Notes: a model not told the origin generated them from the sequence alone. A stretch of 40,145 nt of DNA from Pseudomonadota bacterium (GCA_030641485.1 DAOWHJ010000154.1:1-40145); one strand, 5' to 3'. Counted from the first letter of the stretch, positions 13,907 to 35,637 are shown. Numbers and translations: made by a program.

Positions 13907-13909
13907 AAA

Positions 13910-21333: not shown

Positions 21334-22222
21334 AAAAAGGGGGAACCAACGGTTACGAGCAGGAAATAGTCGTAAGGCTATCCAGCAGGCTCGCAACACC
21401 GGCGTAAAAAGTGGTGGTATACGTAAGGTTGCTCTGTTAATTTCGCTGGTCTGTTTTTTAGCTCTGGGCGGCAGTGCCTTGTGGCTCTGGTTGCCGACGC
21501 TGGTAAGTAATGTAGATGGTTGGTTAAAAGAGAGCGGCAGCTTTTTAGTAAGAGAGATCGTAGTTGAAGGCATTCATAGGTGTCACAGGGATGATATAAT
21601 TCAAGCTCTGAACCTGGATTCGGAGCAGCTGATATTCACATTTTCTTTGGTTCAAGCTCAGGCTCGAGTAGAGGCGCTACCGTTCATTAAACTGGCAATG
21701 ATTCGCCGCCGGTTGCCAGACTTGCTGCAGGTTGAGGTCGTTGAGTGCAAACCTCGGGCTCTGCTATATTTGGAGGATCTGTATCTGGTTGATGAAGAGG
21801 GGGTTGTGATGGCACGTGCCCCGGCAGGAGAGGTCTTGGATTTCCCAGTGATCAGTGGTTTTAGCTTAAATGAATGGCAGCAACGGCCCCAAGTTTGGCG
21901 GAGATTGCTTAAGAAGGCCACGAACCTACTCTTGATTTGGGAAGAGAGAGGTAAAGAGTGGCCGGAAAAGGTTGCTCAGATAGTGTTGGATGAAGTTTGT
22001 GGAGTAACTCTGTTTACAACGGGCAGTAATTGGGAGTTGCAATTGGGGTCGGAGAACTATTGTGAACGCCTTGAACGTTGGCGACAGGTTCTCGTGTTGT
22101 TGGGTGAGCGTGCATCATCGGTGAAATATTTCGATTGTGCCGGGGAGAGCTCGGTTGTAGCCGGGTTACGGCAGTTCAAAATAGAGGCAGATAAAAAGGC
22201 AGGGGAATATGGCCAGAAGTGA
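21305..22222 (+). CDS. ftsQ: Cell division protein FtsQ/DivIB
   Basis: Basic N-tail, one TM helix, POTRA-like VREIVVEG..LPFIK..RRRLPD..VVE, LVDEEG; located between ddl and ftsA. Start uncertain. Confidence 0.85.
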   Translation: MLVLIWPRAKKRGNQRLRAGNSRKAIQQARNTGVKSGGIRKVALLISLVCFLALGGSALWLWLPTLVSNVDGWLKESGSFLVREIVVEGIHRCHRDDIIQALNLDSEQLIFTFSLVQAQARVEALPFIKLAMIRRRLPDLLQVEVVECKPRALLYLEDLYLVDEEGVVMARAPAGEVLDFPVISGFSLNEWQQRPQVWRRLLKKATNLLLIWEERGKEWPEKVAQIVLDEVCGVTLFTTGSNWELQLGSENYCERLERWRQVLVLLGERASSVKYFDCAGESSVVAGLRQFKIEADKKAGEYGQK

Positions 22223-23438
22223 ACAGATGGTGGTTGGTCTTGATTTAGGGACAACAAAAACTTGCGTCCTGGTAGGTGTTCAGGGGGAGACCGGGCTTGA
22301 AATTGTCGGTGTAGGAACTGCTCCTTCAATTGGTCTGCGCAAAGGTGTGGTTGTTAATTTGGACTCAACTGTAGAGTCCATTCGTCAGGCCGTGGCAGAG
22401 GCGGAAAAGATTTGTGGGCAGAAAATTAAGGTTGTGTATACGGCAATAGCAGGCAGTCATTTGCAAGGTATGAATAGTCACGGTATTATCGGGGTTAAGG
22501 ACCGGGAGGTTAGTAAGACTGATGTTGAGCAGGTTCTTGATGCAGCTCGGGCGGTAGCAATCCCAATGGATCGTGAAGTGATTGATACAATCCCTCAACA
22601 ATTTTTTCTTGATGATCAGGAAGGGGTGGTTGATCCTGTGGGGATGTCTGGGGTCAGGCTCGAAGTCGATGTGCATATCGTGACGGCGGCTGCAGCCTCA
22701 CTGCAAAATGTCTACCGCTGTTGTAATCGGGCCGGACTTGATGTGAAGGGGGTGGTATTGCAGCAGTTGGCTTCAAGCCGGGCTGTACTTACCGTCGAAG
22801 AGTGCGAACTTGGAGTGGTGTTGATCGATATTGGGGGGGGGACAACTGATATTGCAGTTTATGTTGGAGGGGCAATTTCCTACACTGCATGCCTGCCATT
22901 AGGTGGTAATCAGGTAACTAATGATATTGCACTTGGTTTACGGACCCCAATGGAAGCTGCCGAAAAAATTAAGCGACACTACGGATGTACAACTTCGAAG
23001 ATGATTGACTCAGAGGAGCCAATTGAAGTTCCAAGTGTCGGAGGGCGCCCGCCGCGCAAACTTCCACGCCAAATTCTAGGCGAGATTATAGAACCGCGGT
23101 TGCAGGAGATTTTTGAACTGGCAAATCGTGAGCTGCATAAGTCAGGGTTTTATGACCAGGTGGTTTCTGGAGTTGTTGTGACCGGCGGAACTGCTCTGTT
23201 GCCAGGGGCGGCAGAACTTGTGGAAAAAGTTTTTGAGCTTCAGGCCCGGGTCGGTTTTCCCGAGACTCAAGGTAGTGGTTTTGATGCAGTCAACAGCCCC
23301 ATCTACGCAACCTCAATAGGCTTGCTTAGATATGCTGCTGATGGACAGAATTCAAATCGAAACAGTAACGGGTTTAAGGGATTGGAAATGGGTGGAATTT
23401 TTGCTAAATTTACAGCTTTTATGAAGGATTTTTTTTAA
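22209..23438 (+). CDS. ftsA: Cell division protein FtsA
   Basis: GLDLGTTK, GLRKGVV, P.GMSGVRLE, IDIGGGTTD, AEKIK, TGG. Confidence 0.97.
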   Translation: MARSEQMVVGLDLGTTKTCVLVGVQGETGLEIVGVGTAPSIGLRKGVVVNLDSTVESIRQAVAEAEKICGQKIKVVYTAIAGSHLQGMNSHGIIGVKDREVSKTDVEQVLDAARAVAIPMDREVIDTIPQQFFLDDQEGVVDPVGMSGVRLEVDVHIVTAAAASLQNVYRCCNRAGLDVKGVVLQQLASSRAVLTVEECELGVVLIDIGGGTTDIAVYVGGAISYTACLPLGGNQVTNDIALGLRTPMEAAEKIKRHYGCTTSKMIDSEEPIEVPSVGGRPPRKLPRQILGEIIEPRLQEIFELANRELHKSGFYDQVVSGVVVTGGTALLPGAAELVEKVFELQARVGFPETQGSGFDAVNSPIYATSIGLLRYAADGQNSNRNSNGFKGLEMGGIFAKFTAFMKDFF

Positions 23439-23574
23439 TAAATTAGAACAACATGCAAATTTAGGGTAGCTAATCCCGATCTCTTTCGGAAGATCAGTTT
23501 AGGTCCTCAGTTTGCTGAAATATATTGTTAGAATTAAGGTTTGGGCAACTTTAAAGTATTAAAGGGAGAGAGCT

Positions 23575-24855
23575 ATGACATTTGAATTTGAAGAGAGCGT
23601 AAATCTAGCGGCACAAATTAAAGTGGTAGGGGTCGGTGGTGGCGGTGGTAATGCCGTAAACAACATGATTCTATCTGGCCTTGAGGGGGTTGATTTTATT
23701 GTCGCCAACACTGATGCGCAAGACCTGAAGGCCTCACAGGCTGCATCCAAGATACAATTAGGAAGCCGGGTGACCAAAGGTTTGGGGGCTGGAGCAAATC
23801 CCGATATCGGGTGTAGTGCTGCCTTGGAAGATGCTGATCACATTTCAGAATTGCTGGCTGGTGCGGATATGGTTTTTGTGACCGCAGGTATGGGCGGAGG
23901 AACCGGTACCGGTGGGGCACCTGTTGTGGCTCAGTTGGCTAAGGAGGCAGGTTCGCTGGTGATTGGAGTGGCCACCAAACCTTTTAATTTTGAAGGCAAG
24001 AAAAAGATGCGTATAGCCGAAGCGGGGTTGGCAAAGTTACGCGAAAATGTAGATGCCCTGATCACCATTCCGAACCAGAGGTTGTTGAATACAGTTTGTA
24101 AAAATACAACTGCTGCCGATGCATTTAAAACGGTTGACGATGTATTGTTGCAGGCGGTTCGCAGCATCTCTGACCTTATCAATGTCCATGGTCATATTAA
24201 TCTTGATTTCCAGGACATTAAAACGATCATGGATAATGCCGGAATGGCTCTTATGGGGACGGGTATTGCAAGTGGAGAGAACCGTGCCCTCGAAGCCGCA
24301 CAGTCGGCAATTGCATCACCCCTGTTAGAGGATCTAAGTATTCAGGGGGCCCGCGGTGTGATTATTAACTTTACCGCATCTTCCGAGTTGACCCTGCATG
24401 AGATGGATCAAGCCGCGACATTGATTCAGGAAGAGGCCCACGAAGATGTTGAGGTGATCACCGGGTTTGTTCTTGATGACTCTCTGGGTGAGGATCTTCG
24501 CATTACAGTTATTGCGACCGGTTTTGATTCAGTTCAGGCTTCTCAGCCAGCGATTGCTGGAGTTGGGGCTAAGGGGCCGGGGTTAGGTCTTGCCGGAAGG
24601 TACCCAATTGGTACAGCCGTACGACGTGACAATTATGATCGTCCAGCTTTTCAGGTTCAGAATGATGAGGCTGCCGGAATGGTTTCGTCCTACGAAGCGG
24701 TGGACGCCGATCGCATGGTTAGCAAAGATCTTCAATTTGAAGATATTCAGGAGATACCAACTCTTATGAAAAAGGTAGTTGGTTCAGAAAGTGAGTTTGA
24801 CAGCGGGATTGATGATATGGACATTCCAACCTTTATTAGGCGTCAAATCAGTTGA
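23575..24855 (+). CDS. ftsZ: Cell division GTPase FtsZ
   Basis: GVGGGGGNA, GGGTGTG tubulin signature, NLDFQD, C-terminal DIPTFIRR. Confidence 0.98.
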   Translation: MTFEFEESVNLAAQIKVVGVGGGGGNAVNNMILSGLEGVDFIVANTDAQDLKASQAASKIQLGSRVTKGLGAGANPDIGCSAALEDADHISELLAGADMVFVTAGMGGGTGTGGAPVVAQLAKEAGSLVIGVATKPFNFEGKKKMRIAEAGLAKLRENVDALITIPNQRLLNTVCKNTTAADAFKTVDDVLLQAVRSISDLINVHGHINLDFQDIKTIMDNAGMALMGTGIASGENRALEAAQSAIASPLLEDLSIQGARGVIINFTASSELTLHEMDQAATLIQEEAHEDVEVITGFVLDDSLGEDLRITVIATGFDSVQASQPAIAGVGAKGPGLGLAGRYPIGTAVRRDNYDRPAFQVQNDEAAGMVSSYEAVDADRMVSKDLQFEDIQEIPTLMKKVVGSESEFDSGIDDMDIPTFIRRQIS

Positions 24856-25050: not shown

Positions 25051-25482
25051 CTAAAGTGCGTGAATGACACTTGTAACCACACCCCAGATTTCAAAATCCA
25101 TCTCCTCGATAATTTCAGTGGGACCGTATTCCGGGTTTTCAGGAAGCAGAAAAACTCTTTTCTTATCTACCCGAATCCTTTTTACAGTCAAGTCACCATC
25201 AATAATGGCGATCACGACTTTTTTGTCGCTCGCCTCCAGGGCACGATCCACAATCAGGAGATCACCTGATTGGATACCTGCACCGGTCATTGAATCACCT
25301 TTAACTTTAACGAAGAAAGTTGCAGCTGGATGACGAATGAGGTACTTGTTCAGGTCGAGGTGGTTCTCGATGTAGTCATCTGCAGGAGACGGGAAACCAG
25401 CTGAGACCGGAATCATAAAAAGCGGCCGATTATATTCACTCTCAATCTCAGGGCCTGAGATCGCCGTAACAGTTGTTGACAT
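25051..25482 (-). CDS. umuD: UmuD-like S24 peptidase (SOS mutagenesis accessory subunit)
   Basis: AGFPSPA cleavage region, DLN..LI.HP.ATF, GDSM (Ser), TVKR (Lys), WGVV; no DNA-binding domain. Confidence 0.9.
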   Translation of the reverse strand: MSTTVTAISGPEIESEYNRPLFMIPVSAGFPSPADDYIENHLDLNKYLIRHPAATFFVKVKGDSMTGAGIQSGDLLIVDRALEASDKKVVIAIIDGDLTVKRIRVDKKRVFLLPENPEYGPTEIIEEMDFEIWGVVTSVIHAL

Positions 25483-25512: not shown

Positions 25513-25550
25513 AAAAAAGAGGGCCATTTTCAAGTCTGAAAATGGCCCTC
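25513..25550 (-). terminator. Intrinsic terminator of the porin-cytochrome operon
   Basis: 14-bp perfect stem gagggccattttca/tgaaaatggccctc followed on the minus strand by a T6 tract, about 50 nt after the cytochrome stop. Confidence 0.85.
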
Positions 25551-25597
25551 TCTGCGAGCAACTATACCCGCGTTAGTTTTTGTTGTTACCAGTAGTG

Positions 25598-28500
25598 CTA
25601 TTTCATGAATGCACCCCAAAGATCGTAAAGGAGCTGGTTACCGCCACCAGCACCGGGCTCAACCGCAACATATTCACCAGGTTCATAGACTTTGACCAGT
25701 ACATAAGCACTCTGGTGGCCGACAATAACAGCATCATGGGCTCGGGTGTAGAATGTATCGTGCTCTCCCAGCTTCCAGATTTCCGGCTCGGCACCAGTGT
25801 AGGGCAGGCGAATAATCGCTGCCGGGACCGGCTCTGTCGCATGAGCGTCATCGGAGCTATGGCCTGAATTGAGTTCGTAACGCAATACGAAAGCCTTGGC
25901 GAACCCACGACCGCTAAGATAGACATCTTCCTGGCCGCCGACGGTGAAGCCAAGAGCTGCCAGTTTATGAATTTTAAGTTCTTGCGGGATGTAAAAATGA
26001 CTCTTATCCATCCATGGGCCATTAACTACCTGTCTGGCGTATTCTCTTTCCTGCTCTTCCAGGGTTAACAATGCCGGGTCAACTCCGAAAATAGAGTCAC
26101 CTTTAACCGTGCCCTCAGAGGTCAGTGAGAAAAGGGCTTCTGCGTGATGGAGGCTCAATTTGAGAATGTCTTTCTCGCGGGCACCAAGGATACGCATGCC
26201 GTTAGCTTCAATTACATCAATATAATCAACCTCACCGTCAACAATAAAGAGACCATCCGGATTAGCCGGAACCATACCGTGTGCAGGGTCGTAACGCATC
26301 GCCCGGTTTTCATCTCTAAACCAAGGCGGAGCCCAAGGAACAAATGAGATGATCCGGTCAGTAACCCGAAGGGCACCGGCACTGTTGGCGACACTGCCAT
26401 GACAGTCGTTACATGACTTGGACCCTAGAGCTTCCTCTTTGGGTTTGATTCCATGGCTGCCAGAGAAGTAGTGAGCTGCAATGAAAAGGACTGGGTTCGG
26501 GTTGGTGCCTCCCTGTGCAATAATTACCTTCTTAAGAGATTCCTGCATGGCCTTGACATCTTCATCCCACCAGATGTCTGGAAACATATCGCCGGTGTGG
26601 TCAAAGAGGACGTAGCCGCTATCCTTCAGGATAACGCGGCCGACGTAAGGGTTCTGGGCCCAAGTCGGATCGTTTGCCGGGATCATAGCCATCTCCATGG
26701 GAGAGACCATGCCGAGTTTGGTAGGTTTCTTGTACTCTTTTATTGTGGCGTTGAGCTCTTTGAGGTAGATAATCCGCGCCCCAGCATAAGGCATTTCACT
26801 CATGTCGGCATCTTCTTGCGGGTTAGTGTCGACCCAGGTCATAACCGTAATCGGATTGCCTGGGACGATTTGTGGATAACCATTGAGACCGTTAGCATAA
26901 TAGAGTGGTGGGATTACTTCATTATCGGTCAGCTCAGTATACTCGAGTGGAATACCCATCGACTTCATGCCTTCGTAGCTGGCCTGGAGGAAGTATTTCC
27001 AGAAGTCAAATTTAAAGTTGGTCGGCATCCCGTTAACTAACTGACCCGGGTCAGACTCACCGTCCATAAAGAAATAATCAACCATTTGCGACTGAATGTC
27101 CATCGATTCCTGACCTTTACCGTCAGCATCAATGTGGTTCGCTACCATATTGAAGTGGGGAATCCCATAACCCGGTGAACAGGAGTAGACCGGTGAAATC
27201 GCGTAGGCTGGTGATGGGAATGCCATAACCGAATTGTCACCGCCTGGGAGGATGTTGTACCCCATCAGGTTGTCAAAGTTAGCATAGTAACCTAGGGTGT
27301 CATCAAAACAGCGGAAATTCCAGGTTTTCCGTTTTGGCGCATGACAGGTTTGGCAGGCAATCTCAGACAAGTGGCGCCCGGTGTTCTCGCCAAAAACTTC
27401 TTCATGCCGGACGGACGGGTTGTTGCCGTGACCCTCGCCACCCATGTGGCAACCTTCACAACTCTTGACTCGCGGGTTGGCATCAAGGTCGTTACGTACC
27501 ATATGGGCGGTATCAACTCCTTTTAGGAAGTTATGTTTATCTTCAACTGTGCCATTTTCACGTAGATGACAACTTCCGCAACCCATCCATTTACCCGACA
27601 TATGGACATCGTATCCACGGTCTTCAGTGTCGTTAGTGAAATTGACGTAGTGGCCATTTTTTACATAGTCAGCTGAAAAACCAAGGTTGTATTTTCTTGA
27701 ACTGGTCCATTCGCTGTTGCCGTGATCTTTAGTCATAACATGGCATTCACCGCAGACTTTAACCCACTTCCAGCTTTCACGATCATCCTGGCCGCCAAAC
27801 ATCTCGGTCATCGGCAGGGCTCCATCTTCACCGATGTCACCAAGATTGTAGAAGACCTTAGGCGTCCAGGTGTCACCATCGCGATCAATCCGTAAATATG
27901 TAACCGGGGCTCCGTCATGGTTGAAATCAAGACCCATGAGTTCGCCTGAAGGCATGTAGTTAAAAAAACCGGGCAGGTAGTCATGCATGACCGGATTGAT
28001 TTCCCCCTCCGGAATTTTTCCTTCCTGGAGATCCTGAATTACTAATGCCAGGTCAAGCTGACCGGTCTCCGGACTGATATAGCGGTAGTCACCCTGCATA
28101 ATCAGACCCATGGCATACATGGTCGCACTTAGTTCGGTACCGTTTTTACCAACGTACGGAATCCCTTCACCTTCAATCAGGCCGGAACGGATATAGTCAC
28201 GGGTAGAAGCATGAAAGCTATCCCAGTTAGTGTAGAATTTGCCTGGCTCATAAGCTCTTAATGCATACGGAATCGGTAACATCATATCGTTTTCAAACTG
28301 GATTTTGTAAGCAAAGATGAAGTCGTTGAAGAAGAGACCCATCAACATATTCATATCGGCATCGGGCGGTAGAAGACCCTTATCCTTCATGTACTGTAAA
28401 AAACCTTGAAAAAGTTGACCGATGGCCGCCTGAGCTGCACCGAGGCGACCCATTTCGTCCATAACTCCATTCGGGTTAGCGCAGTACTCCTCACGCAGCA

Positions 28501-29623
28501 TACCGGTTTTTGCATCCCAGATTTTGGCGATGTTGGGGCCGTAGAGCGCGAAAGGAAGATTGATGCCGTTGGCTTCGATCTGCTTTAAGCCATCAACCCA
28601 CATCTGCATCATTTCACCAACAATCTCTTTCGGTAGTTGAGCTAAAGCCATCATCGGAGTTGGGCGACCCATACGTTGGAGGCCGTCACTATAGTAGAGA
28701 GTAGTGCTGTTCTTCAGGCCAATCTGGGTTGGCATCCCAAAAGAGATCTTCTGGACCTTGAAGTTTTCGTCACGTTCAGCAAACATTAGCATCCGGGGAC
28801 GGTAGGTCTTGACCTTCAGACCATCAGCAGCCCGGTAACCGTAGGGGCTTTCCGGGTCGATATGACACATCAAGCAGTCGGCTTCCACAGTTCCCGATTT
28901 TGACCAATCATGCTTTTTCGGTGCACCGAGGTTCTTCATGGTCTCTTCGATGGTTTCTGCACCGTAAATTGCCATGGTGATGTCGTTAACACTGTAGTTG
29001 TAGAAATCACGGTCGTAGCTGTGCTCTTCCACCAGGCTTGGATCACCGAACTGGGTAAGAGTTCCATCCTCACCGAAAATTCCCTCGACCGGACCGCCAC
29101 CAGGATGGCACGATTGGCAGCTCTCAATATGTTCAGCGGTGCCCATATCGAAGAAGTAGGGTTTATCTTCTGAGGTGAAGGGTTGACGGTAATCACCACG
29201 CTCTTTTTTTGCCGCCACCTGGCGGTAAGAGGGGGGTCACCACGCACCGAATTGCCCCGGACTTAAGAGATGTCCGTAGGCATTGGCAAGGTATTTGTAA
29301 AGCGGGTTATCATCCATGTTTTCACTGACCCAGGTATCACTGATTCCTTGGCCGTCAACATTAGCACCTTCACGAAAGTGGTAGGCTTTGGTGACTGCAT
29401 GGTAGTCATGGCATTTGCCACAAGTCTGTTTCGGGCTGTAGGGCGGGCCCGCCTTGTAGATCGAGCCGCCTTCAGCGGTGACAATTTCGCTATCATCAAG
29501 TTGATCAATAATCCGGTTGCCCTGACCGTCATACAGGGTTACCGGGGGATGGGCCGCCGCCGCGAGCATTGGTACCAATGCCAGCAGGAGTGCTCCAAAA
29601 ATCATGGGTAAAAACTTCTTCAT
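25598..29623 (-). CDS. Secreted octaheme c-type cytochrome, predicted selenoprotein (1341 aa, Sec at residue 129, encoded by UGA 29239-29237)
   Basis: ORFs 29237..29623 and 25598..29218 are in the same frame, joined by TGA plus 6 sense codons (..SPGQFGAW-U-PPSYRQ-VAAKK..). The signal peptide and GGAGG RBS occur only on the upstream piece. Eight CxxCH motifs: CGKCH, CQSCH, CLMCH, CGECH, CGSCH, CEGCH, CQTCH, CNDCH. SECIS-like hairpin after the UGA. Confidence 0.85.
29201..29239 (-). promoter_or_regulatory. Bacterial SECIS-like element with the recoded UGA
   Basis: mRNA reads UGA-CCCCCCUCUUA-CCGCC-AGGU-GGCGG-CAAAAAAAGAG: a 5-bp all-GC upper stem after an 11-nt spacer, a GU-containing apical loop, and a lower stem CUCUU/AAGAG. 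Confidence 0.8.
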
Positions 29624-29700
29624 TTAACTACCTCCAAAGGTTTTATTAGTAATACATGCAAATATATGGTTAAATATTTTAGGTTTTAAAGTGGATTAGT

Positions 29701-30603
29701 CTACTGCTTGCGCAGCACGATGCCCTTATGACACTTCATGCACTCACCGGTTTCATGGCAAACATTACAGCTCCGGAAGTTACGGTGGGCCGCTTCAGCA
29801 TGTCCGTTTTCACGCTGGTATGACATCCAGTCGCCGCGCTTGTGCGAGACCGGTTTCTGGTGTTTGTGGCAATCGGTGCAGTAGCCAGCAACATGACATG
29901 TAGCACAAACCCGGCGATCATGAGTGGCTTCAACCCCATGGCCTGAGGTCTTCCAGCCAAAGTTGTGGTCTTTTGGTTTCTCGGTCTGATGACATTTTTC
30001 GCAGAAAGCCTGGCGGTTGGAATGACAGCAGTAACAGGAGTCGGTAAGTTTGCTGGCAAAGCCATGCTTTGCATCCCAATCCTGGCTATGGTTTACCGGT
30101 GCTTTCTCAGCCCGGAGTTCTGTGTGGCAAGCCTCACAGTCGGTTGGGCCATCTTGGCTTTTGTGGCAGTTAAGGCAAAGGGCCATAGTTGGTCCTTTGT
30201 CGAAACCACGATCTTTATTAATGGCGTAGTGACATGATTCACAGTTGAGCTCAGTATGGGCTTCGTGGCTGAAAATCAGGTCGGCAAAGCCGATCGGTTT
30301 TGCCACACTCTTGATTTCGTAATCTTTGGCAGCGCTTTCGGGGGTATGGCAGAGTAGGCAGCCAGGTCCCGGTTCGTCAACATTGAAATCATGGCACTCT
30401 TGGCAAGTATCCATGGTTGCCGCTGTTCGGTTGCCGTCAGTATCAGTTTTGTGGCAGGTGTCACAACTGGCTTCCTGCTCGATGATATGGAAGCGGTGAC
30501 TAAACTTAAGACCCACTGATGATTTACAGGCTCCGAGAATCAGAGCTCCGAAAACTAAAGCCGCAAGTCCTATCCAGAGTAATCTTCTTTTTTGCTTGCA
30601 CAT
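29701..30603 (-). CDS. Dodecaheme c-type cytochrome lipoprotein
   Basis: Lipobox LGAC; 12 CxxCH motifs (CDTCH, CQECH, CLLCH, CESCH, CLNCH, CEACH, CYCCH, CEKCH, CATCH, CTDCH, CNVCH, CMKCH) in 300 aa. Confidence 0.92.
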   Translation of the reverse strand: MCKQKRRLLWIGLAALVFGALILGACKSSVGLKFSHRFHIIEQEASCDTCHKTDTDGNRTAATMDTCQECHDFNVDEPGPGCLLCHTPESAAKDYEIKSVAKPIGFADLIFSHEAHTELNCESCHYAINKDRGFDKGPTMALCLNCHKSQDGPTDCEACHTELRAEKAPVNHSQDWDAKHGFASKLTDSCYCCHSNRQAFCEKCHQTEKPKDHNFGWKTSGHGVEATHDRRVCATCHVAGYCTDCHKHQKPVSHKRGDWMSYQRENGHAEAAHRNFRSCNVCHETGECMKCHKGIVLRKQ

Positions 30604-30669
30604 AAAAATGTCCGTTTTTATAGTAAGGTTGTTTTGATTGCTTTAAAACTAAAAGCCGATTGATTTTCG

Positions 30670-32067
30670 TTAGAAATCAAGGTCTAGAGTTACTGTTAGT
30701 GAATTGATGTGATCAACCCCGAGCTCATCTTCATAGAAGTCATCCTGAGCGTATTCGTAAGCCAGTTCTACCCGTGAATAGGCACAAATTTTGTAGGCGA
30801 CTGCAGCCCGGTAGCTCGTTGACGCTTCGTTTTCAAGCAGGCTGTTAACATCTTCACTTTTATGGTAGTAGCCTAAAGAAATCTCTAATGTCTGAAAGAG
30901 TTCCTGCTCAAGGTCGGCAAACCAGGAGGTCGATTCGCCTTCGTAGAATTTATCACGCTTTTCCCACCAATGGCTGTATCCAGCACTAAAGTGCGAACCA
31001 TGGATACCGAAACCCTCATGGAGGTCAAATCCAGCAGTAATTCGGTGGAAGTCAGTATTGTAAATGTTTTCATCGTCACTGTGTGAGAGGTTGCGGTTGC
31101 AGTAACGGCCAAAAACGGTGAGTCCGTGAACGAAGGGGATGGGCTGACTTACGCGGACATCGAATTGTAGGTAGCTCTCTTCCTGCATCAGGTAGAGACG
31201 GTTCATTTCTGAGCTTAAAGCTTCATCAAGAGTATAGCTGAAGTCGAAAAGAAAATCGGCCTCGGAAGCGATGTCGTAACGTCGATAGATGGAAAAATCA
31301 AGGACCGTTCCGGTTGCCGCAATCGTGGTTTCAACCCCACCGTCAATAAATCGAGTATGGTCATTAATGAAGGCGACCCGGCTGCGTAATTTCCAAGAAT
31401 CTGAAGGCTGCCAGTAGAGGGCAGTTTCCCAAGAGGTCTCTTCAAAAATTACCGCATTTAGATCAATTGCAAGGCCAGGTAAAGGGCGAATTCGTAAGTT
31501 GGCACCACCAATTCCGCTCGGCCCAAGGTCATCGTAATGTTGGGTGATGAGCCCGCCGAAGGCCTCAATCTCAAGCCCTAAAAGTTGCGGTAGGTCGTAG
31601 CGGGCCCAGAGTCCGTCAAATTGGATGTTTTCAGCCCCATAAGCATACTGGCGACCGGCTCTTACTGTGAGTGCGTCAGTAAAGAGGCCACTCTTTTCTA
31701 GGTAAGCGTAATAACATTCAAAATCCTGCCGATGGCTGCCACGGCTATCGGTGTAATCCTGAAAAATCGAGCCCGAGCGAGTGCCATCAAGATCTTTGGC
31801 GTAGGTCACCATAGTCGAGAAGCTTAAGCCCTTGTCCTGCCAAATAACGTCAGCAGAGAGGGTCTCGAAAAAATCTTGGTCACTATTTTCATCTGTAACC
31901 ATATAGTCTGCCGGACTGTCTGACCACTGCAGTCTATACTCTGTGGTGCTGCGTAACGAAGCCTCCGCACCGCCTAATTCCAGAGCTGAAACGGGGGGTG
32001 TCAACAGGCAACATCCGATTATCAGTCCGGCTACAATCCTAAGTTGCCGCCATTGTAATCCAGCCAT
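30670..32067 (-). CDS. Outer-membrane beta-barrel (putative porin of a porin-cytochrome complex)
   Basis: Signal peptide ending PVSA; amphipathic Tyr/Phe-rich strands (AYLEK, VRAGRQY, FDGLWARY); C-terminal beta-signal SLTVTLDLDF; acidic; directly upstream of two multiheme cytochrome genes. Confidence 0.8.
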   Translation of the reverse strand: MAGLQWRQLRIVAGLIIGCCLLTPPVSALELGGAEASLRSTTEYRLQWSDSPADYMVTDENSDQDFFETLSADVIWQDKGLSFSTMVTYAKDLDGTRSGSIFQDYTDSRGSHRQDFECYYAYLEKSGLFTDALTVRAGRQYAYGAENIQFDGLWARYDLPQLLGLEIEAFGGLITQHYDDLGPSGIGGANLRIRPLPGLAIDLNAVIFEETSWETALYWQPSDSWKLRSRVAFINDHTRFIDGGVETTIAATGTVLDFSIYRRYDIASEADFLFDFSYTLDEALSSEMNRLYLMQEESYLQFDVRVSQPIPFVHGLTVFGRYCNRNLSHSDDENIYNTDFHRITAGFDLHEGFGIHGSHFSAGYSHWWEKRDKFYEGESTSWFADLEQELFQTLEISLGYYHKSEDVNSLLENEASTSYRAAVAYKICAYSRVELAYEYAQDDFYEDELGVDHINSLTVTLDLDF

Positions 32068-32166
32068 CTAAATAGTCCTTTTTGTTTTTGGTTTGCCAAG
32101 CACCAGTTTGGAGGTTGGCACTTGAATTCTCTTACGTTGACCACATTAGAGTTTGCTCATTGTCAT

Positions 32167-32205
32167 TTGACTCATTAACATACATTAACCCAGTGAATGA
32201 GTCAA
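32167..32205 (-). promoter_or_regulatory. Sigma70-type promoter of the porin-cytochrome operon, bracketed by a 10-bp inverted repeat
   Basis: Minus strand TTGACT (32205-32200), 17 nt, TATGTT (32182-32177); ttgactcatt (32167-32176) / aatgagtcaa (32196-32205). Confidence 0.55.
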
Positions 32206-32557
32206 GCAAAAAAATGCACAAACATAAATTTTACGGAGCTCCTATCGCGAACAAAATTATCTCCATGATACGAACCATAGGGCACCCTATAGAATGAGGT
32301 ATCATTTTATAAGGCTGTGTAATTGTTAATTCTTTATACAAAATACAAAGCATGATTAAGATTTAATTGCTAAATTGTTTGTAAGGTCTTCATGGTTGTC
32401 TGGTGGAGATTAAACTCGTTTAGCCGGAGGTCAATTATGTGCGTCTTTTGACCCAAATCGGTGGGTCGTTTAGTTTGTGTTGGTGGCTTGCTGTGGGCTC
32501 AAAAGGTATGTTTGGGAACCAATTGAAGGGGTTGCAAGTTTACTGAAAGTCTTAAGT

Positions 32558-32735
32558 TTGATGCCTTCGTAAAAAAAATTACCGGATGGCTAGGTAAAAA
32601 TTTCGATACACATGCTGTGGTGGTTTTTCAGGTGCGAGAGACTATACATGTAATATGTCGAGTGCATGAAAAACCACCACAGCTGGCACCCCAAAGGCAC
32701 TTCCCATGGGCGTAGATCGGACTTTTTTAGCCATC
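32558..32735. repeat. Palindromic intergenic repeat (REP/MITE-like), composite
   Basis: Ends gatggctaggtaaaaa / ttttttagccatc; perfect 17-bp internal IR gctgtggtggtttttca (32614-32630) / tgaaaaaccaccacagc (32667-32683); 29-nt module at 32686-32714 shared with 33611-33639. Confidence 0.75.
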
Positions 32736-32752
32736 AGGTTTGCGTAGGGCAC

Positions 32753-32788
32753 AAAAAAGGGCACCTGCGATATTTGCAGATGCCCTTT
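32753..32788 (-). terminator. Intrinsic terminator
   Basis: Minus strand aaagggcatctgcaa-ata-tcgcaggtgccc-tttttt, downstream of the 32833 gene. Confidence 0.75.
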
Positions 32789-32832
32789 GTCAAGTAAACA
32801 TACTTAAAATGTCAGTTGGCTTGATTTTGGTC

Positions 32833-33216
32833 TCAGTTTTGACCAACTGCCAAAGGAATTATGATTGCAGGAGCATCACTAACCTGTTTTTCAAGCTCAT
32901 GTTGGAGTTGTGGTGCCGCCTCAGCATTGTCGGCCAGCTTCTTTTTACGGAAGTGGTCAACAGAACAAAGCACAATTGAGAGAATCACAAATCCACCCCA
33001 CATTACAATCAGGGGGAAGACCAAGATGTTGAGGGCTGGAATAAAGGCTGCCGGAATCGCCATTATTCCAAAAAACTTACCCATCACCAGACAAACAGCT
33101 CCAATCTTGGTGAGTACCGAAATTTGTTGGATAAGCTCCAGGAAATCTGCTGCGTCTGTGTCTGCAGTGTGTTGACTGTAGTTACGGCTGTAAGTTCTAG
33201 CCTGGCTGGGACTCAT
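32833..33216 (-). CDS. Hypothetical membrane protein (about 2 TM helices)
   Basis: Hydrophobic core IGAVCLVMG..FVILSIVLC followed by RKKK; ATG 33216 with ggag RBS; own terminator. Confidence 0.6.
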   Translation of the reverse strand: MSPSQARTYSRNYSQHTADTDAADFLELIQQISVLTKIGAVCLVMGKFFGIMAIPAAFIPALNILVFPLIVMWGGFVILSIVLCSVDHFRKKKLADNAEAAPQLQHELEKQVSDAPAIIIPLAVGQN

Positions 33217-33375
33217 TCTCTTCTCCGTCACGCATGTGAATTATGGTGCTTAAGTGCGAACAGCTAATCGTCAAAAAAATATAAGCTATCTTCATAAAAC
33301 TAACCGATGGTGTGTTGATTGTCAAGTTTTTTTGCTCTGAACAAAAAAGATCCAATTTCGATCTTGTGAAATTTG

Positions 33376-33573
33376 TCAAGAACCAGGGAGTTTTTCTTCC
33401 TGTTTGAGCTCATTAGCTAGGTAGTATTCACTAGTTAAAGTACGCTCTACAATTTCATTGCCAAGCAGGCGTTCGAGGGCTTTAGTTGCCTCTTTGCATT
33501 TACCTCCTTCAAACCCAGCTAGATCAAGGTCAACCGTACCATCTGCACCAATTGTAATGTTGATTTTTTCCAT
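33376..33573 (-). CDS. DUF2997-family small protein
   Basis: I.ITIGADGTV..GFEGGKCKEATKALE..LG..TSEYY pattern; adjacent to DUF1257 and Ycf46-like genes. Confidence 0.8.
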   Translation of the reverse strand: MEKINITIGADGTVDLDLAGFEGGKCKEATKALERLLGNEIVERTLTSEYYLANELKQEEKLPGS

Positions 33574-33600
33574 TCTAATTTCACCCTCTAAATTTATTGT

Positions 33601-33670
33601 TGATGGATTCGCACCCCAAGGGCACTTCCTCTGGGCGTAAAAAGTACCGGACTTATTTACTTAGTCATCA
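33601..33670. repeat. Short copy of the palindromic repeat carrying the 29-nt module
   Basis: tgatggattc-[gcaccccaagggcacttcctctgggc]-gtaaaaagt...tttacttagtcatca; module is 26/29 identical to 32686-32714. Confidence 0.7.
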
Positions 33671-33679
33671 TTAGTTAGG

Positions 33680-34057
33680 TTAGGACTCCCGACTCAAAGT
33701 CATGCTTATAGTGCCCGCTTCATTTTCTTCGTTGGTTAGGAGGAAGCCCTGTTGAGCTAAAGTGTCCTTAACCACGTTGTAGGCATAGCGTTGATTTAAG
33801 GTGTCCATGAAAGTAGTTTGGTCAACGTCCTGAATCGAGTCCCAGTCAGCGACGACATCGTAGGTTTCTCCGTTAAAACGGAAACCGATGTCACAACCAC
33901 TTTTTGTCGGGATAATGAGGTCAGCTTTCTCTTTTTTCCAGAGCCAGCCCTTGGCTTTGAGTTTTCCCTCCTGATATTCTAGTTCCATGTCGCTGATCGC
34001 CTTTTTTAAAAAAACTTTGTCAGCAATTTTACTTTTAATCTTGGTGAAGTGTGACAT
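33680..34057 (-). CDS. DUF1257 (Ycf35-like) protein
   Basis: MSHFTKIK, DIGF, YDVVADW, LNQRYAY..V...QQGF signature. Confidence 0.88.
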   Translation of the reverse strand: MSHFTKIKSKIADKVFLKKAISDMELEYQEGKLKAKGWLWKKEKADLIIPTKSGCDIGFRFNGETYDVVADWDSIQDVDQTTFMDTLNQRYAYNVVKDTLAQQGFLLTNEENEAGTISMTLSRES

Positions 34058-34127
34058 GACATCTCTCCGAATTATTAATGTTAGTCAAACTGTGGGGTTA
34101 TACCTGATATGGAATCAGGCCAACCAG

Positions 34128-35618
34128 CTACGACTCGCTGTTTGCTTTTCGGGTTCTTTGCGCGGCCCAGGCTTTGAGCCCATCAATTTTTTCGCTCATT
34201 AAGCGTGAAATTGGGATGATTTCACTGACACTGGCAAGAACATCAGCTTCAGTAAATTCACGCTGATTGTCGTCAAATGCGTTAAACATTGCGTCATAGA
34301 TAATCTGCTCAATTTCAGCACCACTATAGTCGGTGGTCGCATCTGCAAGTTTTGTGAGGTCAAACTGGCGGATTACAGGGCGCACCTTTTCAAGCAGGAC
34401 CTTGAAAATTGCTTGGCGCTCTGAATTTGAGGGGAGATCGACAAAGAAAATTTCGTCAAATCGACCTTTACGCATCAACTCTGGAGGGAGTTGGGCAACG
34501 TCATTGCCGGTTGCAATAATAAAGACTGGTTTAGTTTTTTCCTGCATCCAAGTCAAAAAAGTTCCTAAAATACGAGCTGAAGTGCCACCATCACCGGCTG
34601 AGCCGGAACTGCCCGCAAAAGCTTTTTCAAGTTCATCGATCCAAAGAATGCAGGGGGAGATAGTTTCAGCCAGATTAATCGCCTGGCGTAGGTTCTGTTC
34701 AGATTCACCGAGGAGGCTGCCAAAGACCTTACCTAAGTCCATTCTTAGAAGAGGTAATTTCCAGAGCCCGGCAGTGGCCTTGGCAGCCAAGCTTTTACCA
34801 GTACCCTGGATGCCAATAATCAAAATCCCTTTCGGTGACGGAAGGCCGTAATCTTTGGCTTTGTGCGTGAAGACCTGGCTGCGTTTGCGCAGCCACCCTT
34901 TAAGATTTTCAAGTCCGCCAATGTCATTTAGGCTTTCCTGAACCGGAAAGAATTCTAGGATTTCACCTTTTCTGATGATGCCTCGCTTTTCCAGGAGAAT
35001 AATTTCAATTGCGCGCTCATCAATAGACCCATGGGTTATGATGATCTTGGAAAATAGATTCTTGATGTTAACCATCGACAGGCCCATGGTCGATTCGATA
35101 ATTTTCTCTTTTAGTTGAGGCGTGGGTGGTTTTCCTTGGGCCGCACTTACGACAATACTGTCAAGTTCTTTCTCGATCTCGGAGTAGCCCGGAAGTTCAA
35201 GTTCAAGTTGGCAAATGTCTTCGCGTAATTCAATGGGTAAGGTTGGGGTCGGGGTGGTCAGGACAATTGTTTTTTTTGTGAACTGAAGATCATGGTTGAG
35301 GTTCCTGAGGGATCTTAAAATGATACTTTCGCGAAAATGGAGATGAAAATCACGGAGAATAAAGAGAGCGTTACCTTTAAATTTCTTGATCTCCTGCAGA
35401 CAGGTGATAGGGTCAGCCCGGTCGCGATTTTTGATTCCGCCGAGGTCACCTTTGAGCGGGCTGAAACCATCACCCAAGTCCCAGACGATGATATTTTTGT
35501 CTTTGAAAAGTGGAGATTCACTCAGCATTGAGTGGAAGCGAGCCTCTTCATAAGTGATTATGTTTATCAGTGAATGGTTGCTGCGAATGGTTGTGTTAAG
35601 GCGCTCAAGAAAGTCCAT
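34128..35618 (-). CDS. Ycf46-family AAA+ ATPase
   Basis: Degenerate N-terminal P-loop domain (TYEEAR, LRDFH); DIGGLENLKGWL, Walker A GIQGTGKS, Walker B LWIDELEK, LMRKGRFDEIFFVDLP. ATG 35618 has a gagg RBS. Confidence 0.92.
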   Translation of the reverse strand: MDFLERLNTTIRSNHSLINIITYEEARFHSMLSESPLFKDKNIIVWDLGDGFSPLKGDLGGIKNRDRADPITCLQEIKKFKGNALFILRDFHLHFRESIILRSLRNLNHDLQFTKKTIVLTTPTPTLPIELREDICQLELELPGYSEIEKELDSIVVSAAQGKPPTPQLKEKIIESTMGLSMVNIKNLFSKIIITHGSIDERAIEIILLEKRGIIRKGEILEFFPVQESLNDIGGLENLKGWLRKRSQVFTHKAKDYGLPSPKGILIIGIQGTGKSLAAKATAGLWKLPLLRMDLGKVFGSLLGESEQNLRQAINLAETISPCILWIDELEKAFAGSSGSAGDGGTSARILGTFLTWMQEKTKPVFIIATGNDVAQLPPELMRKGRFDEIFFVDLPSNSERQAIFKVLLEKVRPVIRQFDLTKLADATTDYSGAEIEQIIYDAMFNAFDDNQREFTEADVLASVSEIIPISRLMSEKIDGLKAWAAQRTRKANSES

Positions 35619-35637
35619 ATCATCCTCTATCAATAAG

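What the first reader, a model, noticed from the sequence alone, without database searches (positions are those of the whole stretch)
25513..32205. Self-contained three-gene porin-cytochrome conduit ending in a seleno-octaheme
Seen in sequence: a candidate promoter, a beta-barrel with C-terminal Phe (465 aa), a 12-heme lipoprotein (300 aa), the 8-heme predicted Sec protein (1341 aa) and a strong terminator, all on one strand (20 hemes in total). Established: porin + periplasmic multiheme + lipoprotein multiheme is the layout of MtrCAB and Geobacter Pcc/Ext outer-membrane electron conduits. A Sec-containing multiheme cytochrome (ExtKL) is known from a porin-containing Geobacter ext cluster, but I cannot tell from here whether it is related. 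Inference: this may be an undescribed conduit in which one partner is a large catalytic selenoenzyme instead of a passive wire. It could couple trans-outer-membrane electron flow to sulfur/polysulfide, selenium-oxyanion or nitrogen-compound redox chemistry.
Basis: partly seen in the sequence, partly recalled or inferred. Interest (0 to 1): 0.88.

Follow-up and report, generated by a model that had tools for sequence, protein, structure and literature searches.

The report
Outer-membrane cytochrome conduit with new selenoenzyme
Three neighbouring genes encode an outer-membrane pore, a 12-haem protein predicted to thread it, and a very large 8-haem selenium-containing protein of a family not found in the databases and papers searched, a cassette kept together in many sulfur-cycling sediment bacteria.

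Summary
On the minus strand lie a 465-aa protein predicted as a 22-strand beta-barrel, a 300-aa lipoprotein with 12 invariant CxxCH motifs, and a 1341-aa protein with 8 CxxCH motifs and an in-frame UGA at codon 129. A strong terminator follows. The UGA is very probably selenocysteine. The aligned codon is TGA in 64 of 68 homologous loci, Cys in 2 and Leu in 2. A hairpin 11 nt downstream is fixed at synonymous sites and lost in the Cys forms. SelA and a UGA-containing SelD are in the genome; SelB and tRNA-Sec are in 4 of 4 relatives searched. The trio keeps its order in 42 of 53 loci with enough flanking DNA. In 301 genomes of the phylum, all 15 with the enzyme also have the barrel. A complex prediction places the 12-haem protein inside the barrel (0.68; best control 0.00). 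The large protein is not ExtKL/MccSep and matches no curated family or solved structure. Best reading: a porin-cytochrome conduit wired to a new selenoenzyme, probably on the cell surface and acting on sulfur compounds. Catalysis, substrate and location are inferred. New variant of a known kind; interest 0.7.

The parts
32177..32205 (-). Promoter-like site, TTGACT-17-TATGTT, upstream of the barrel gene
   Evidence: 9 of 12 consensus matches. 18 such sites were found in the region against 9.7 +/- 3.8 in shuffles, so this is weak.
30670..32067 (-). Outer-membrane beta-barrel protein, 465 aa, with a signal peptide and a C-terminal Phe
   Evidence: One search gives the ORF. (AlphaFold2) predicts 22 strands, pLDDT 80.1, pTM 0.72. 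(Foldseek) matches only outer-membrane barrels. No Pfam, NCBIfam or PDB-sequence family was found.
29701..30603 (-). Dodecahaem lipoprotein, 300 aa (lipobox LGAC, Cys26), predicted to thread the barrel
   Evidence: 12 CxxCH motifs and Cys26 are invariant in 25 of 25 sequences; complex score 0.68 against a best control of 0.00; the N-terminal half resembles c7-type, ActA and GSU1996 domains; MtrA is not significant (E 0.018).
25598..29623 (-). Octahaem selenoprotein, 1341 aa, with a signal peptide, Sec129 and 8 CxxCH motifs
   Evidence: Only an MtrC/MtrF domain II/IV-like stretch (residues 621-768, 39 bits) was found in Pfam. No PDB relative was found.
29237..29239 (-). UGA codon read as selenocysteine (residue 129), in the context GAW-U-PPSYRQ
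   Evidence: the aligned codon is TGA in 64 of 68 loci, TGC or TGT in 2 and CTG in 2.
29201..29231 (-). SECIS-like stem-loop. The apical hairpin CCGCC-AGGU-GGCGG (29212..29225) starts 11 nt after the UGA. The lower stem pairs CUCUU with AAGAG.
   Evidence: One search gives the fold (-15.2 kcal/mol; z only -1.14); codons +4 to +8 use one codon in 60-64 of 64 sequences, and the hairpin is lost in the Cys forms.
25513..25553 (-). Intrinsic terminator: a 17-bp hairpin plus a U-run
   Evidence: dG -27.2 kcal/mol, z -6.65, 0 of 200 shuffles as stable.

Best explanation
The three genes form one cassette for a redox machine that spans the outer membrane.

- The 465-aa protein is a 22-strand outer-membrane barrel.
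- The 300-aa dodecahaem lipoprotein is anchored by its N-terminal lipid in the inner leaflet of the outer membrane. Its N-terminal six-haem half (c7/ActA-like) reaches into the periplasm to collect electrons. Its C-terminal half runs through the barrel to the cell surface, as MtrA does in MtrB.
- The 1341-aa octahaem protein is a true selenoprotein of an unrecorded family and is the catalytic end of the chain.
- It most likely docks on the outer face. There Sec129, next to haems 1-3, attacks sulfur-sulfur (or other chalcogen) bonds of extracellular elemental sulfur or polysulfide, with electrons supplied through the haem wire.

Shown here:
- gene content and order;
- recoding of the UGA (comparative evidence);
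- conservation and co-occurrence of the trio;
- lack of homology to ExtKL/MccSep, MtrA, MtrB or any solved structure.

Predicted in silico:
- the barrel fold;
- the haem protein sitting inside the barrel, and its orientation.

Inferred only:
- that the three proteins form one complex;
- surface location of the enzyme;
- catalysis, substrate and the direction of electron flow.
For: Selenocysteine
- The UGA is in frame, with conserved coding sequence on both sides.
- The aligned codon is TGA in 64 of 68 loci, Cys in 2 and Leu in 2.
- The same TGA and hairpin occur in three far more distant trios, L099, L101 and L102.
- Five codons forming the hairpin are fixed to one synonymous codon in 60-64 of 64 unique sequences. 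Equally conserved Gly, Ala and Ser codons upstream use 3-4 codons.
- The Cys forms keep the residues RQLAA but use other codons and lose the stem.
- SelA (592 bits) and a SelD with an in-frame TGA are in the genome. SelB and tRNA-Sec are present in 4 of 4 relatives or trio-bearing genomes searched.

Barrel and wire
- AlphaFold2 predicts 22 strands, pLDDT 80. Foldseek hits are all outer-membrane barrels.
- The complex prediction gave a median of 0.68 (runs 0.59, 0.70, 0.68) against a best control of 0.00. Partner pLDDT was at least 71 and at least 58% of contacts were shared between runs. In the tool's calibration this mark was reached by 58 of 80 solved complexes and 2 of 110 mismatched pairs, and the counts hold only roughly with own alignments.
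- Contacts alternate along nearly all strands. Cytochrome residues 182-186 touch the periplasmic strand ends and residues 228-238 the extracellular ends.

Linkage of the three genes
- 42 of 53 loci with at least 2450 nt upstream carry barrel and 12-haem genes in the same order, with median gaps of 35.5 and 86.5 nt.
- Trio-linked enzymes fall in one 44-row clade with support 99.
- In 301 genomes of the phylum, 16 have the barrel, 15 have the enzyme, 15 have both, and none has the enzyme without the barrel.
- No other flanking gene is shared by more than 12 of 43 loci.

Surface location (indirect)
- Homologues carry C-terminal Lcl_C adhesin-type domains and MopE motifs.
- One carries a JDVT-CTERM sorting signal (31.7 bits, cut-off 27), and others carry adhesin-like tails.

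Sulfur link (indirect)
- The carriers are Desulfobulbia, Dissulfuribacterales, Thermodesulfatator, Desulfuromonadaceae and Tharpella-type genomes (record titles), from cold-seep samples.
- The only characterised haem selenoenzyme, MccSep, is a polysulfide reductase (PMC13510729, Results and Discussion read).
- In the window's own family, 0 of 20 genomes have DsrA or ExtKL over cut-off, while 16 of 20 have this barrel.
Against: - No expression, protein or activity data exist. No RNA run was listed, so co-transcription is unproven.
- The enzyme exists without the conduit in 11 of 53 loci. In 3 of 4 such genomes searched, no barrel homologue was found anywhere. The enzyme can therefore work with other partners, which fits a periplasmic enzyme at least as well.
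- The large protein has no lipobox.
- Its AlphaFold2 model is only moderate (pLDDT 67; the haem and Sec regions are below 50). The distance from Sec to any haem is therefore unknown.
- No conserved extra Cys exists to play the haem-ligand role seen in MccSep.
- ExtKL/MccSep coexists with this enzyme in 3 of 5 genomes. This argues against identical function.
- The SECIS fold alone is not better than shuffles (z -1.14).
- SelB and tRNA-Sec were not found in the window's own 62%-complete genome.
- The complex pass may partly reflect the model's memory of MtrAB-type structures.
Confidence: 0.58

Rival explanations
1. The selenoenzyme is periplasmic. It oxidises or reduces a soluble substrate there. 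The barrel plus 12-haem wire, with no surface partner (like PioAB or MtoAB), carries the electrons to or from an extracellular mineral, electrode or syntrophic partner.
For: - The enzyme has an ordinary signal peptide and no lipobox (sequence).
- It occurs alone in 11 of 53 loci, and in genomes where no barrel or 12-haem homologue was found.
- MccSep, the one known haem selenoenzyme, is periplasmic (PMC13510729, Results read).
- The N-terminal half of the 12-haem protein is predicted to lie in the periplasm, where it could dock the enzyme.
- The habitat is cold seep, where interspecies electron transfer is common (PMC10553843, passages).
Against: - Homologues carry adhesin-type Lcl_C domains, a JDVT-CTERM sorting signal and Pro/Ala/Thr-rich linkers. 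These are typical of surface proteins.
- The gene order barrel, threading cytochrome, third cytochrome matches Geobacter ombB-omaB-omcB, where the third is on the surface (recalled).
Confidence: 0.22
2. The large protein is not an enzyme. It is an extracellular electron-transfer terminal, an MtrC or OmcB analogue, for minerals or partner cells. Sec serves as a haem ligand or redox tuner.
For: - Its only Pfam match is the MtrC/MtrF domain II/IV (39 bits, cut-off 30).
- Two homologues have Leu in place of Sec and are fused to an extra 11-haem region. They make a 19-haem, wire-like protein.
- Some homologues carry surface-type C-terminal domains.
Against: - Only 8 haems sit in 1341 aa, with about 370 and 300-aa haem-free, well-folded inserts (pLDDT 80-94). 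This is unlike dense wires.
- Sec is costly and, in known cases, catalytic.
- The Sec context is the most conserved stretch of the protein, and Cys is the only common replacement.
Confidence: 0.12
3. The cassette is just a diverged copy of the Geobacter extHIJKL (ExtI porin plus ExtKL/MccSep) system and is therefore already characterised.
For: Both combine a barrel gene with a Sec-containing multihaem cytochrome. Both Sec residues are followed by Pro (G-U-P against W-U-P) (PMC13510729).
Against: - The ExtKL model NF040886 has no match at E <= 0.001 in the whole genome. It scores 445-585 bits on true ExtKL genes at other loci of genomes that also hold this enzyme.
- hhalign aligns 15 columns only.
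- The architectures differ: 8 against 5 haems, 1341 against about 450 aa, Sec at residue 129 against 325, and no conserved haem-ligand Cys.
- ExtI itself could not be compared, because no sequence was at hand.
Confidence: 0.03
4. The UGA is a real stop. Two separate proteins are made: a 128-aa monohaem protein and a 1206-aa heptahaem protein.
For: Gene callers split the gene everywhere. All 7 of 7 database homologues inspected start just after the UGA. SelB and tRNA-Sec are not on the recovered contigs.
Against: - The second ORF would lack a signal peptide although it needs periplasmic haem attachment.
- The frame and the TGA are conserved in 64 of 68 loci, with Cys codons in 2.
- The hairpin is under RNA-level selection.
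- The six codons between the UGA and the called start are as conserved as the rest.
Confidence: 0.02

Closest known systems
MtrCAB of Shewanella (a decahaem MtrA inside the 26-strand MtrB, with MtrC on the surface)
   Same: A multihaem chain is predicted to sit inside an outer-membrane barrel, with its N-terminus periplasmic and its C-terminus at the surface. A third cytochrome gene is adjacent. The large protein has an MtrC/MtrF domain II/IV-like stretch.
   Different: - There is no sequence homology. MtrA (6r2q_A) scores E 0.018 and 17 bits against the 12-haem profile. The barrel has no Pfam family and no PDB relative.
- The barrel has 22 strands and 465 aa.
- The threading cytochrome is a lipoprotein with 12 haems.
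- The third partner is a selenoprotein with sparse haems and no lipobox.
Geobacter porin-cytochrome clusters (OmbB-OmaB-OmcB, ExtABCD, ExtEFG, OetABI)
   Same: Same phylum-level hosts. Same gene order of barrel, then cytochromes. The barrel is of about 20 strands and a lipoprotein cytochrome is present (PMC10553843, passages; otherwise recalled).
   Different: No curated model of those proteins matched any of the three. In those systems the lipoprotein is the surface cytochrome and all partners are taken to be wires. None of them contains Sec, except in the ext cluster below.
ExtKL = MccSep, the periplasmic pentahaem Sec-dependent polysulfide reductase of G. sulfurreducens (PMC13510729)
   Same: It is a c-type multihaem selenoprotein with Sec followed by Pro. 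It has a similar taxonomic range (Desulfobacterota, sulfur reducers and disproportionators). Its gene lies in a cluster with a porin (ExtI).
   Different: It is an unrelated family. It has 5 haems and about 49 kDa, against 8 haems and about 150 kDa here. Its Sec sits in a C-terminal Ig-like domain with a His/Cys-ligated haem. Here Sec is N-terminal and no conserved free Cys exists. Both genes coexist in 3 of 5 genomes.
Catalytic octahaem enzymes (OTR, MccA, HAO/ONR, NrfA fold family)
   Same: Eight haems and a large catalytic-type polypeptide. There is a weak local match to the OTR model over residues 651-764.
   Different: The score is 32 bits against a cut-off of 375. There is no Foldseek or PDB-profile match. 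The protein is 2-3 times larger. No CxxCK or other special haem motif was seen. Sec is present.
ActA / QrcA / GSU1996-type c7-domain cytochromes
   Same: Residues 26-195 of the 12-haem lipoprotein match ActA (6btm_A, 1.6e-10), ActA-like chains and GSU1996 domains, and QrcA weakly. ActA and QrcA are membrane-anchored periplasmic electron-entry modules (recalled).
   Different: All scores are below the family cut-offs. The C-terminal six-haem half, predicted to lie inside the barrel, has no counterpart in them.

Membership tests
Bacterial selenoprotein (UGA recoded as Sec) | An in-frame UGA with conserved coding sequence on both sides, shared by homologues | tested here: met
   TGA in 64 of 68 loci, in the context GxW-U-PPSYRQLAAK; also in the distant trios L099, L101 and L102.
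Bacterial selenoprotein (UGA recoded as Sec) | A SECIS stem-loop just downstream of the UGA | tested here: met
   The hairpin CCGCC-AGKU-GGCGG starts 11 nt after the UGA. Synonymous sites are fixed in 60-64 of 64 sequences. The stem is lost in the Cys forms. The fold energy alone is not significant (z -1.14).
Bacterial selenoprotein (UGA recoded as Sec) | Homologues with Cys at the Sec position | tested here: met
   L067 has TGC and L068 has TGT (2 of 68 loci). Two others have Leu.
Bacterial selenoprotein (UGA recoded as Sec) | Sec machinery (SelA, SelB, SelD, tRNA-Sec) in the genome | tested here: inconclusive
   In the window's own genome (62% complete), SelA (592 bits) and a SelD with an in-frame TGA are present. 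SelB is not over its cut-off, and no convincing tRNA-Sec was found. Both are present in 4 of 4 genomes searched: two of the same genus, one of the same family and one other trio carrier.
Bacterial selenoprotein (UGA recoded as Sec) | Selenium shown in the protein | not testable with these tools
   This needs 75Se labelling or mass spectrometry.
ExtKL / MccSep (NCBIfam NF040886) | A match to the family model over its cut-off (250 bits) | tested here: not met
   No hit at E <= 0.01 in the protein scan. No hit at E <= 0.001 in the whole genome. The same model scores 445-585 bits on true members in 3 of 5 other genomes.
ExtKL / MccSep (NCBIfam NF040886) | Five conserved haem motifs, a C-terminal Ig-like stem bearing Sec, and a conserved haem-ligating Cys | tested here: not met
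   This protein has 8 motifs in 1341 aa with Sec at residue 129. No Cys outside the CxxCH motifs is conserved in 90% or more of 49 full-length sequences. hhalign aligns 15 columns only.
Porin-cytochrome conduit (MtrCAB / Pcc kind) | An outer-membrane barrel of about 20 or more strands encoded beside multihaem cytochromes | tested here: met
   22 predicted strands, pLDDT 80, adjacent to genes for 12-haem and 8-haem proteins.
Porin-cytochrome conduit (MtrCAB / Pcc kind) | A multihaem cytochrome lodged inside the barrel | tested here: met
   This is a prediction only. The score was 0.68 against a best control of 0.00, and the contacts face the lumen on nearly all strands. It is not a measurement.
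Porin-cytochrome conduit (MtrCAB / Pcc kind) | Sequence homology to MtrB/PioB barrels and to MtrA-type cytochromes | tested here: not met
   The barrel matches no Pfam or NCBIfam family at E <= 0.01 except DUF7841, which is below its cut-off. It has no PDB relative. MtrA scores E 0.018.
Porin-cytochrome conduit (MtrCAB / Pcc kind) | A surface-exposed terminal cytochrome, and electron transfer across the outer membrane | not testable with these tools
   There are only indirect hints from the C-terminal domains of homologues.
OTR / HAO / NrfA / MccA catalytic multihaem enzymes | A family model or fold match | tested here: not met
   TIGR04315 scores 32 bits against a cut-off of 375. Foldseek against the PDB gives no hit at E <= 0.001, the best being 4.8. 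The PDB profile search gives nothing. The model's quality limits the fold test.

The most novel reading that the evidence does not exclude
The large protein is a cell-surface selenoenzyme that reduces solid elemental sulfur or polysulfide (or another extracellular chalcogen) outside the cell. It is fed through the barrel by the 12-haem lipoprotein. It would be the missing terminal reductase of Tharpella-type and related Desulfobacterota, in which neither Dsr nor MccSep was found. Its chemistry would be new: Sec129 may itself be the distal ligand or partner of a catalytic haem, a His/Sec counterpart of the His/Cys haems of TsdA, SoxAX and MccSep.
Probability: 0.28. Interest if true: 0.9.

Novelty: new variant of a known kind. 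Interest (0 to 1): 0.7.

Why it matters
How bacteria respire or disproportionate insoluble elemental sulfur is still unsettled. The 2026 MccSep study shows a periplasmic Sec-haem polysulfide reductase. It states that the route by which extracellular sulfur species reach it is unknown (PMC13510729, Discussion).

A selenoenzyme wired through the outer membrane would offer a direct, testable answer: do the chemistry outside.

The cassette is near-universal in the window's own family (16 of 20 genomes). In that family no DsrA or ExtKL was found (0 of 20 each). It is also present in the named MAG Ca. Tharpella aukensis (L018). The authors of that clade's description found no known terminal reductase in it (PMC9213671, passages).

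The finding also adds a large selenoprotein family. It is absent from NCBIfam release 20 and Pfam, and it is not among the haem-related families in the passages of the 2026 selenoproteome review that I read. Gene callers split it systematically. It would also be the first porin-cytochrome conduit paired with a probable enzyme rather than a wire.

Tried and rejected
Rejected readings
- UGA as a true stop: rejected.
- Kinship with ExtKL/MccSep: rejected.
- Membership of the MtrA, MtrB or OTR families: rejected.

Tests that gave nothing
- PDB sequence and profile searches gave only chance hits.
- A fusion test asked whether the 19-haem homologue P0062 is the 12-haem protein fused to the enzyme. 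hhalign gave probability 45% over 62 columns, which is inconclusive.
- A search for further conserved neighbours found none. The best cluster is in 12 of 43 loci, and the others are clade-specific.
- Rfam at gathering thresholds gave 0 matches in the window.
- ARAGORN on the whole genome found 20 tRNAs and no tRNA-Sec.
- Sequencing runs: no RNA holder was listed. The holders are DNA contigs of cold-seep metagenomes from two studies, one of which may be the source.
- The protein atlas for the barrel returned only unnamed clusters.
- The whole-library search with residues 136-1335 found 17 representatives at E <= 1e-30, 24 at 1e-10 and 87 at 0.001, among 1.84 billion. The weak ones match only the haem-motif stretches.

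Literature
- Five searches found no paper describing this protein family or this trio.
- PMC13510729: Introduction, Results and Discussion were read.
- Passages only were read of PMC13188914, PMC13490349, PMC12545173, PMC9213671, PMC10553843, PMC13326102 and PMC12142623.
- Of PMC5877670, only the listing and the start of the abstract were seen.
- Haft and Tolstoy 2025 (PMC12013261) is not held and was not seen. It may list this family.
- Supplementary tables are closed. MccSep data S1 and S2, and S5-S7 of PMC10553843, may bear on novelty. PMC10553843 mentions an unnamed third conduit in Seep-SRB1g without Geobacter homologues.

Full report
WHAT IS THERE

The genes are on the minus strand. In order of transcription they are as follows.

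- A 465-aa protein (30670..32067). It has a signal-peptide-like N-terminus and ends in Phe.
- After a 66-nt gap, a 300-aa protein (29701..30603). It has a lipobox (LGAC) and 12 CxxCH motifs.
- After a 77-nt gap, a 128-aa ORF that ends at TGA (29237..29239). It continues in frame, six codons later, into a 1206-aa ORF.

Read through, the third gene gives 1341 aa with U129 and 8 CxxCH motifs. A 17-bp hairpin with a U-run follows the third gene (-27.2 kcal/mol, z -6.65). The upstream promoter-like site is weak: 9 of 12 consensus positions, with such sites only about twice as frequent as in shuffles. The next gene downstream is an unrelated UmuD-like peptidase. The next genes upstream are a small membrane protein, a DUF1257 protein and an AAA ATPase.

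THE UGA IS SELENOCYSTEINE

A scan of one genome per species returned 74 loci that encode relatives of the large protein. Of these, 68 cover the N-terminus. The codon aligned with U129 is TGA in 64, TGC or TGT in 2 and CTG in 2. The flanking residues GxW-U-PPSYRQLAAK are nearly invariant.

All 7 of 7 database homologues that I inspected start just after this position. Gene callers therefore split the gene everywhere.

Eleven nucleotides after the UGA lies the hairpin CCGCC-AGKU-GGCGG. In 64 unique sequences, the five codons that build it show these usages:

- TAC in 64 of 64;
- CGC in 60 of 64, the other four being CGT, which still pairs;
- CAG in 64 of 64;
- TTG in 50 of 50 Leu codons;
- GCG in 64 of 64.

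Equally conserved Gly, Ala and Ser residues upstream use 3-4 synonymous codons. The two Cys forms keep the residues RQLAA with other codons and have no stem. This is selection on the RNA, as expected for a bacterial SECIS. The fold energy alone is unremarkable (z -1.14).

The genome is 62% complete. It holds SelA (592 bits) and a SelD that itself has an in-frame TGA. SelB and tRNA-Sec were not found in it. Both are present in 4 of 4 better genomes searched: two of the same genus, one of the same family and one other trio carrier.

THE BARREL AND THE WIRE

AlphaFold2 with 25 homologues predicts the 465-aa protein as a 22-strand barrel (pLDDT 80.1, pTM 0.72). Foldseek finds only outer-membrane barrels: MOMP, OccK/OprD, FimD and AlgE, with TM 0.4-0.5. 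No Pfam, NCBIfam or PDB-sequence family matches. The atlas shows only unnamed clusters.

In the 300-aa protein, all 12 haem motifs and the lipobox Cys are invariant in 25 of 25 sequences. Its N-terminal half resembles c7-type domains: ActA of alternative complex III and GSU1996, at 1e-8 to 1e-11. MtrA is not significant, at E 0.018.

- The median score was 0.68 (runs 0.59, 0.70, 0.68) against a best control of 0.00.
- Partner pLDDT was at least 71, and at least 58% of contacts were shared between runs.
- In the tool's calibration this mark was reached by 58 of 80 solved complexes and 2 of 110 mismatched pairs. The counts hold only roughly with my own alignments.
- Contacts fall on alternating residues of nearly all strands, that is, on the lumen.

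I combined the contact pairs with the strand topology. I assumed that the barrel's termini are periplasmic, as in known outer-membrane proteins. Cytochrome residues 182-186 then sit at the periplasmic rim, 202-206 at mid-barrel and 228-238 at the outer rim. The later residues touch the extracellular loops. So the lipid-anchored six-haem N-terminal half would hang in the periplasm and the C-terminal end would reach the surface. This is an MtrA-like arrangement reached without sequence homology. It is a prediction plus my inference, and the pass may owe something to the model's memory of MtrAB.

THE LARGE PROTEIN IS A NEW FAMILY

- Pfam sees only an MtrC/MtrF domain II/IV-like stretch (residues 621-768, 39 bits).
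- NCBIfam sees only a 32-bit local match to the OTR model, whose cut-off is 375.
- Sequence and profile searches of the PDB find nothing.
- The AlphaFold2 model is moderate (pLDDT 67, pTM 0.68). It is confident in the haem-free inserts and poor around the haems and Sec. It has no Foldseek match at E <= 0.001.
- Among 1.84 billion representatives, only 17 score E <= 1e-30. Weaker hits cover only the haem-motif stretches.

- The ExtKL/MccSep model finds nothing in the window's genome.
- It finds true ExtKL genes, each with one TGA, at other loci in 3 of 5 genomes that carry this enzyme.
- A profile comparison aligns 15 columns around one CxxCH motif.
- The architectures differ: 8 against 5 haems, 1341 against about 450 aa, Sec129 near haems 1-3 against U325 in a C-terminal Ig-like domain.
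- No Cys outside the CxxCH motifs is conserved in 90% or more of 49 full-length sequences. MccSep, in contrast, needs a haem-ligating Cys (PMC13510729, Results).

THE THREE GENES BELONG TOGETHER

- Of 53 loci with at least 2450 nt upstream of the enzyme gene, 42 carry the barrel and 12-haem genes in the same order and orientation. The median gaps are 35.5 and 86.5 nt. The other 11 carry neither.
- On a FastTree of 56 enzymes, the trio-linked ones fall in one 44-row clade with support 99. That clade also holds one small conduit-less sub-clade, L029 and L044. L029's genome has a second copy with the trio, L047.
- Two further conduit-less clades are separate. One is Desulfobulbaceae, including the isolate-labelled L042. 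The other is a divergent clade with the Cys and Leu forms.
- In 3 of 4 genomes with conduit-less copies, no barrel homologue was found anywhere.
- In an even sample of 301 genomes of the phylum, 16 have the barrel and 15 have the enzyme. All 15 with the enzyme have the barrel. The sixteenth, G172, has a 15-haem variant of the enzyme. The carriers span 11-12 genera, and related genomes are not independent.
- The weak barrel hits led to a second, much more distant set of trios, L099, L101 and L102. Each has a barrel, a 12-haem lipoprotein and a Sec enzyme of about 1150 aa, with the same TGA and the same hairpin.
- No other flanking gene is shared by more than 12 of 43 loci. The trio is therefore the unit.

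WHERE AND WHAT

Location and substrate are inferred.

For a surface location:
- Several homologues end in Lcl_C adhesin-type domains or MopE motifs.
- One has a JDVT-CTERM sorting signal over its cut-off, and another has adhesin-like tails.
- Several have Pro/Ala/Thr-rich linkers.

For a periplasmic location:
- The signal peptide is ordinary.
- Conduit-less forms exist.

For sulfur chemistry:
- The carriers are Desulfobulbia, Dissulfuribacterales, Thermodesulfatator, Desulfuromonadaceae and Tharpella-type MAGs from vents, seeps and sulfidic caves (titles; cold seep).
- The only characterised haem selenoenzyme cleaves S-S bonds by Sec attack (PMC13510729).
- In the window's own family, 16 of 20 genomes have the barrel, while 0 of 20 have DsrA or ExtKL over cut-off.
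- For the Tharpella clade, one of whose MAGs (L018) carries the trio, no known terminal reductase was found by its describers. They proposed an HAO-type octahaem protein instead (PMC9213671, passages).

Against identical function with MccSep: the two coexist in 3 of 5 genomes.

COMPARISON AND NOVELTY

The cassette works like a porin-cytochrome conduit (MtrCAB, or Geobacter Pcc, Ext and Oet). None of its three proteins is a detectable member of those families.

Its third partner is of the kind 'multihaem selenoenzyme' that MccSep defined in 2026, but it belongs to an unrelated and far larger family.

Five literature searches found no description. The passages I read of the 2026 selenoproteome review name only ExtKL, the GSU2204 family and a Sec-containing OTR as haem-related families. 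One relevant paper (PMC12013261) and all supplements could not be seen.

I rate it a new variant of a known kind, with a new selenoprotein family inside it.

VERDICT

The structure and genomics are supported. Catalysis, substrate and location are open.
- Confidence in the best explanation as a whole is 0.58. This breaks down as selenoprotein about 0.95, barrel plus threaded cytochrome about 0.75, functional trio about 0.8, surface sulfur enzyme about 0.4.
- Interest is 0.7.

Noticed in passing
window 8081-24855 (+): There is a long run of plus-strand ORFs ending in 409-aa and 426-aa proteins. By their sequences these look like FtsA and FtsZ (my reading, not scanned). It appears to be an ordinary cell-division and cell-wall cluster just upstream of the cassette's terminator side.
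   Followed up: no
window 25051-25482 (-): This is a UmuD-type S24 peptidase (NF007621, 169 bits). It stands directly after the cassette's terminator with no UmuC-like gene next to it. The next gene is the putative ftsZ on the other strand.
   Followed up: partly
window 32833-35645 (-): A 132-aa membrane protein, a DUF1257 protein and a 505-aa AAA+ ATPase lie upstream of the barrel gene. The same set recurs upstream of the trio in 8-9 of 43 loci, all close relatives. Their function and any link to the cassette are unknown.
   Followed up: partly
window 32068-32832: A 765-nt stretch without an ORF of 80 aa or more lies upstream of the barrel gene. It has no Rfam match at gathering score.
   Followed up: partly
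L059:561-6293 and L071:8372-14104: These homologues have Leu (CTG) in place of Sec. They are fused to an extra N-terminal region with 11 haem motifs, giving 1910 aa and 19 CxxCH motifs. The extra region is not clearly related to the 12-haem lipoprotein (hhalign probability 45%).
   Followed up: partly
L100:218-5512 (-): In one genome the barrel and 12-haem genes are followed by a 341-aa ORF ending ...GKW-TGA and a 1414-aa ORF with 15 CxxCH motifs. This is a haem-richer variant with a different sequence after the TGA.
   Followed up: partly
L055:17452-19176: Downstream of a conduit-less homologue lie three small ORFs. Their N-termini look like prepilin-type or pseudopilin signals (read by eye). 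This may hint at type II secretion. It was not tested.
   Followed up: no
G114:C1:1461214-1463225: One trio-bearing single-contig genome has a second tRNA-Sec-like gene (56 bits) directly beside a second SelB-like gene (297 bits). These are in addition to the main pair elsewhere in the genome.
   Followed up: no
L029:5992-9804: A conduit-less paralogue is preceded by a 269-aa lipoprotein-like ORF and two ORFs of 467 and 501 aa that end in Phe and have no haem motifs. These may form a different outer-membrane partner set.
   Followed up: no
G000:C7:11897-12832: The genome's SelD has an in-frame TGA, so it is itself a selenoprotein.
   Followed up: no
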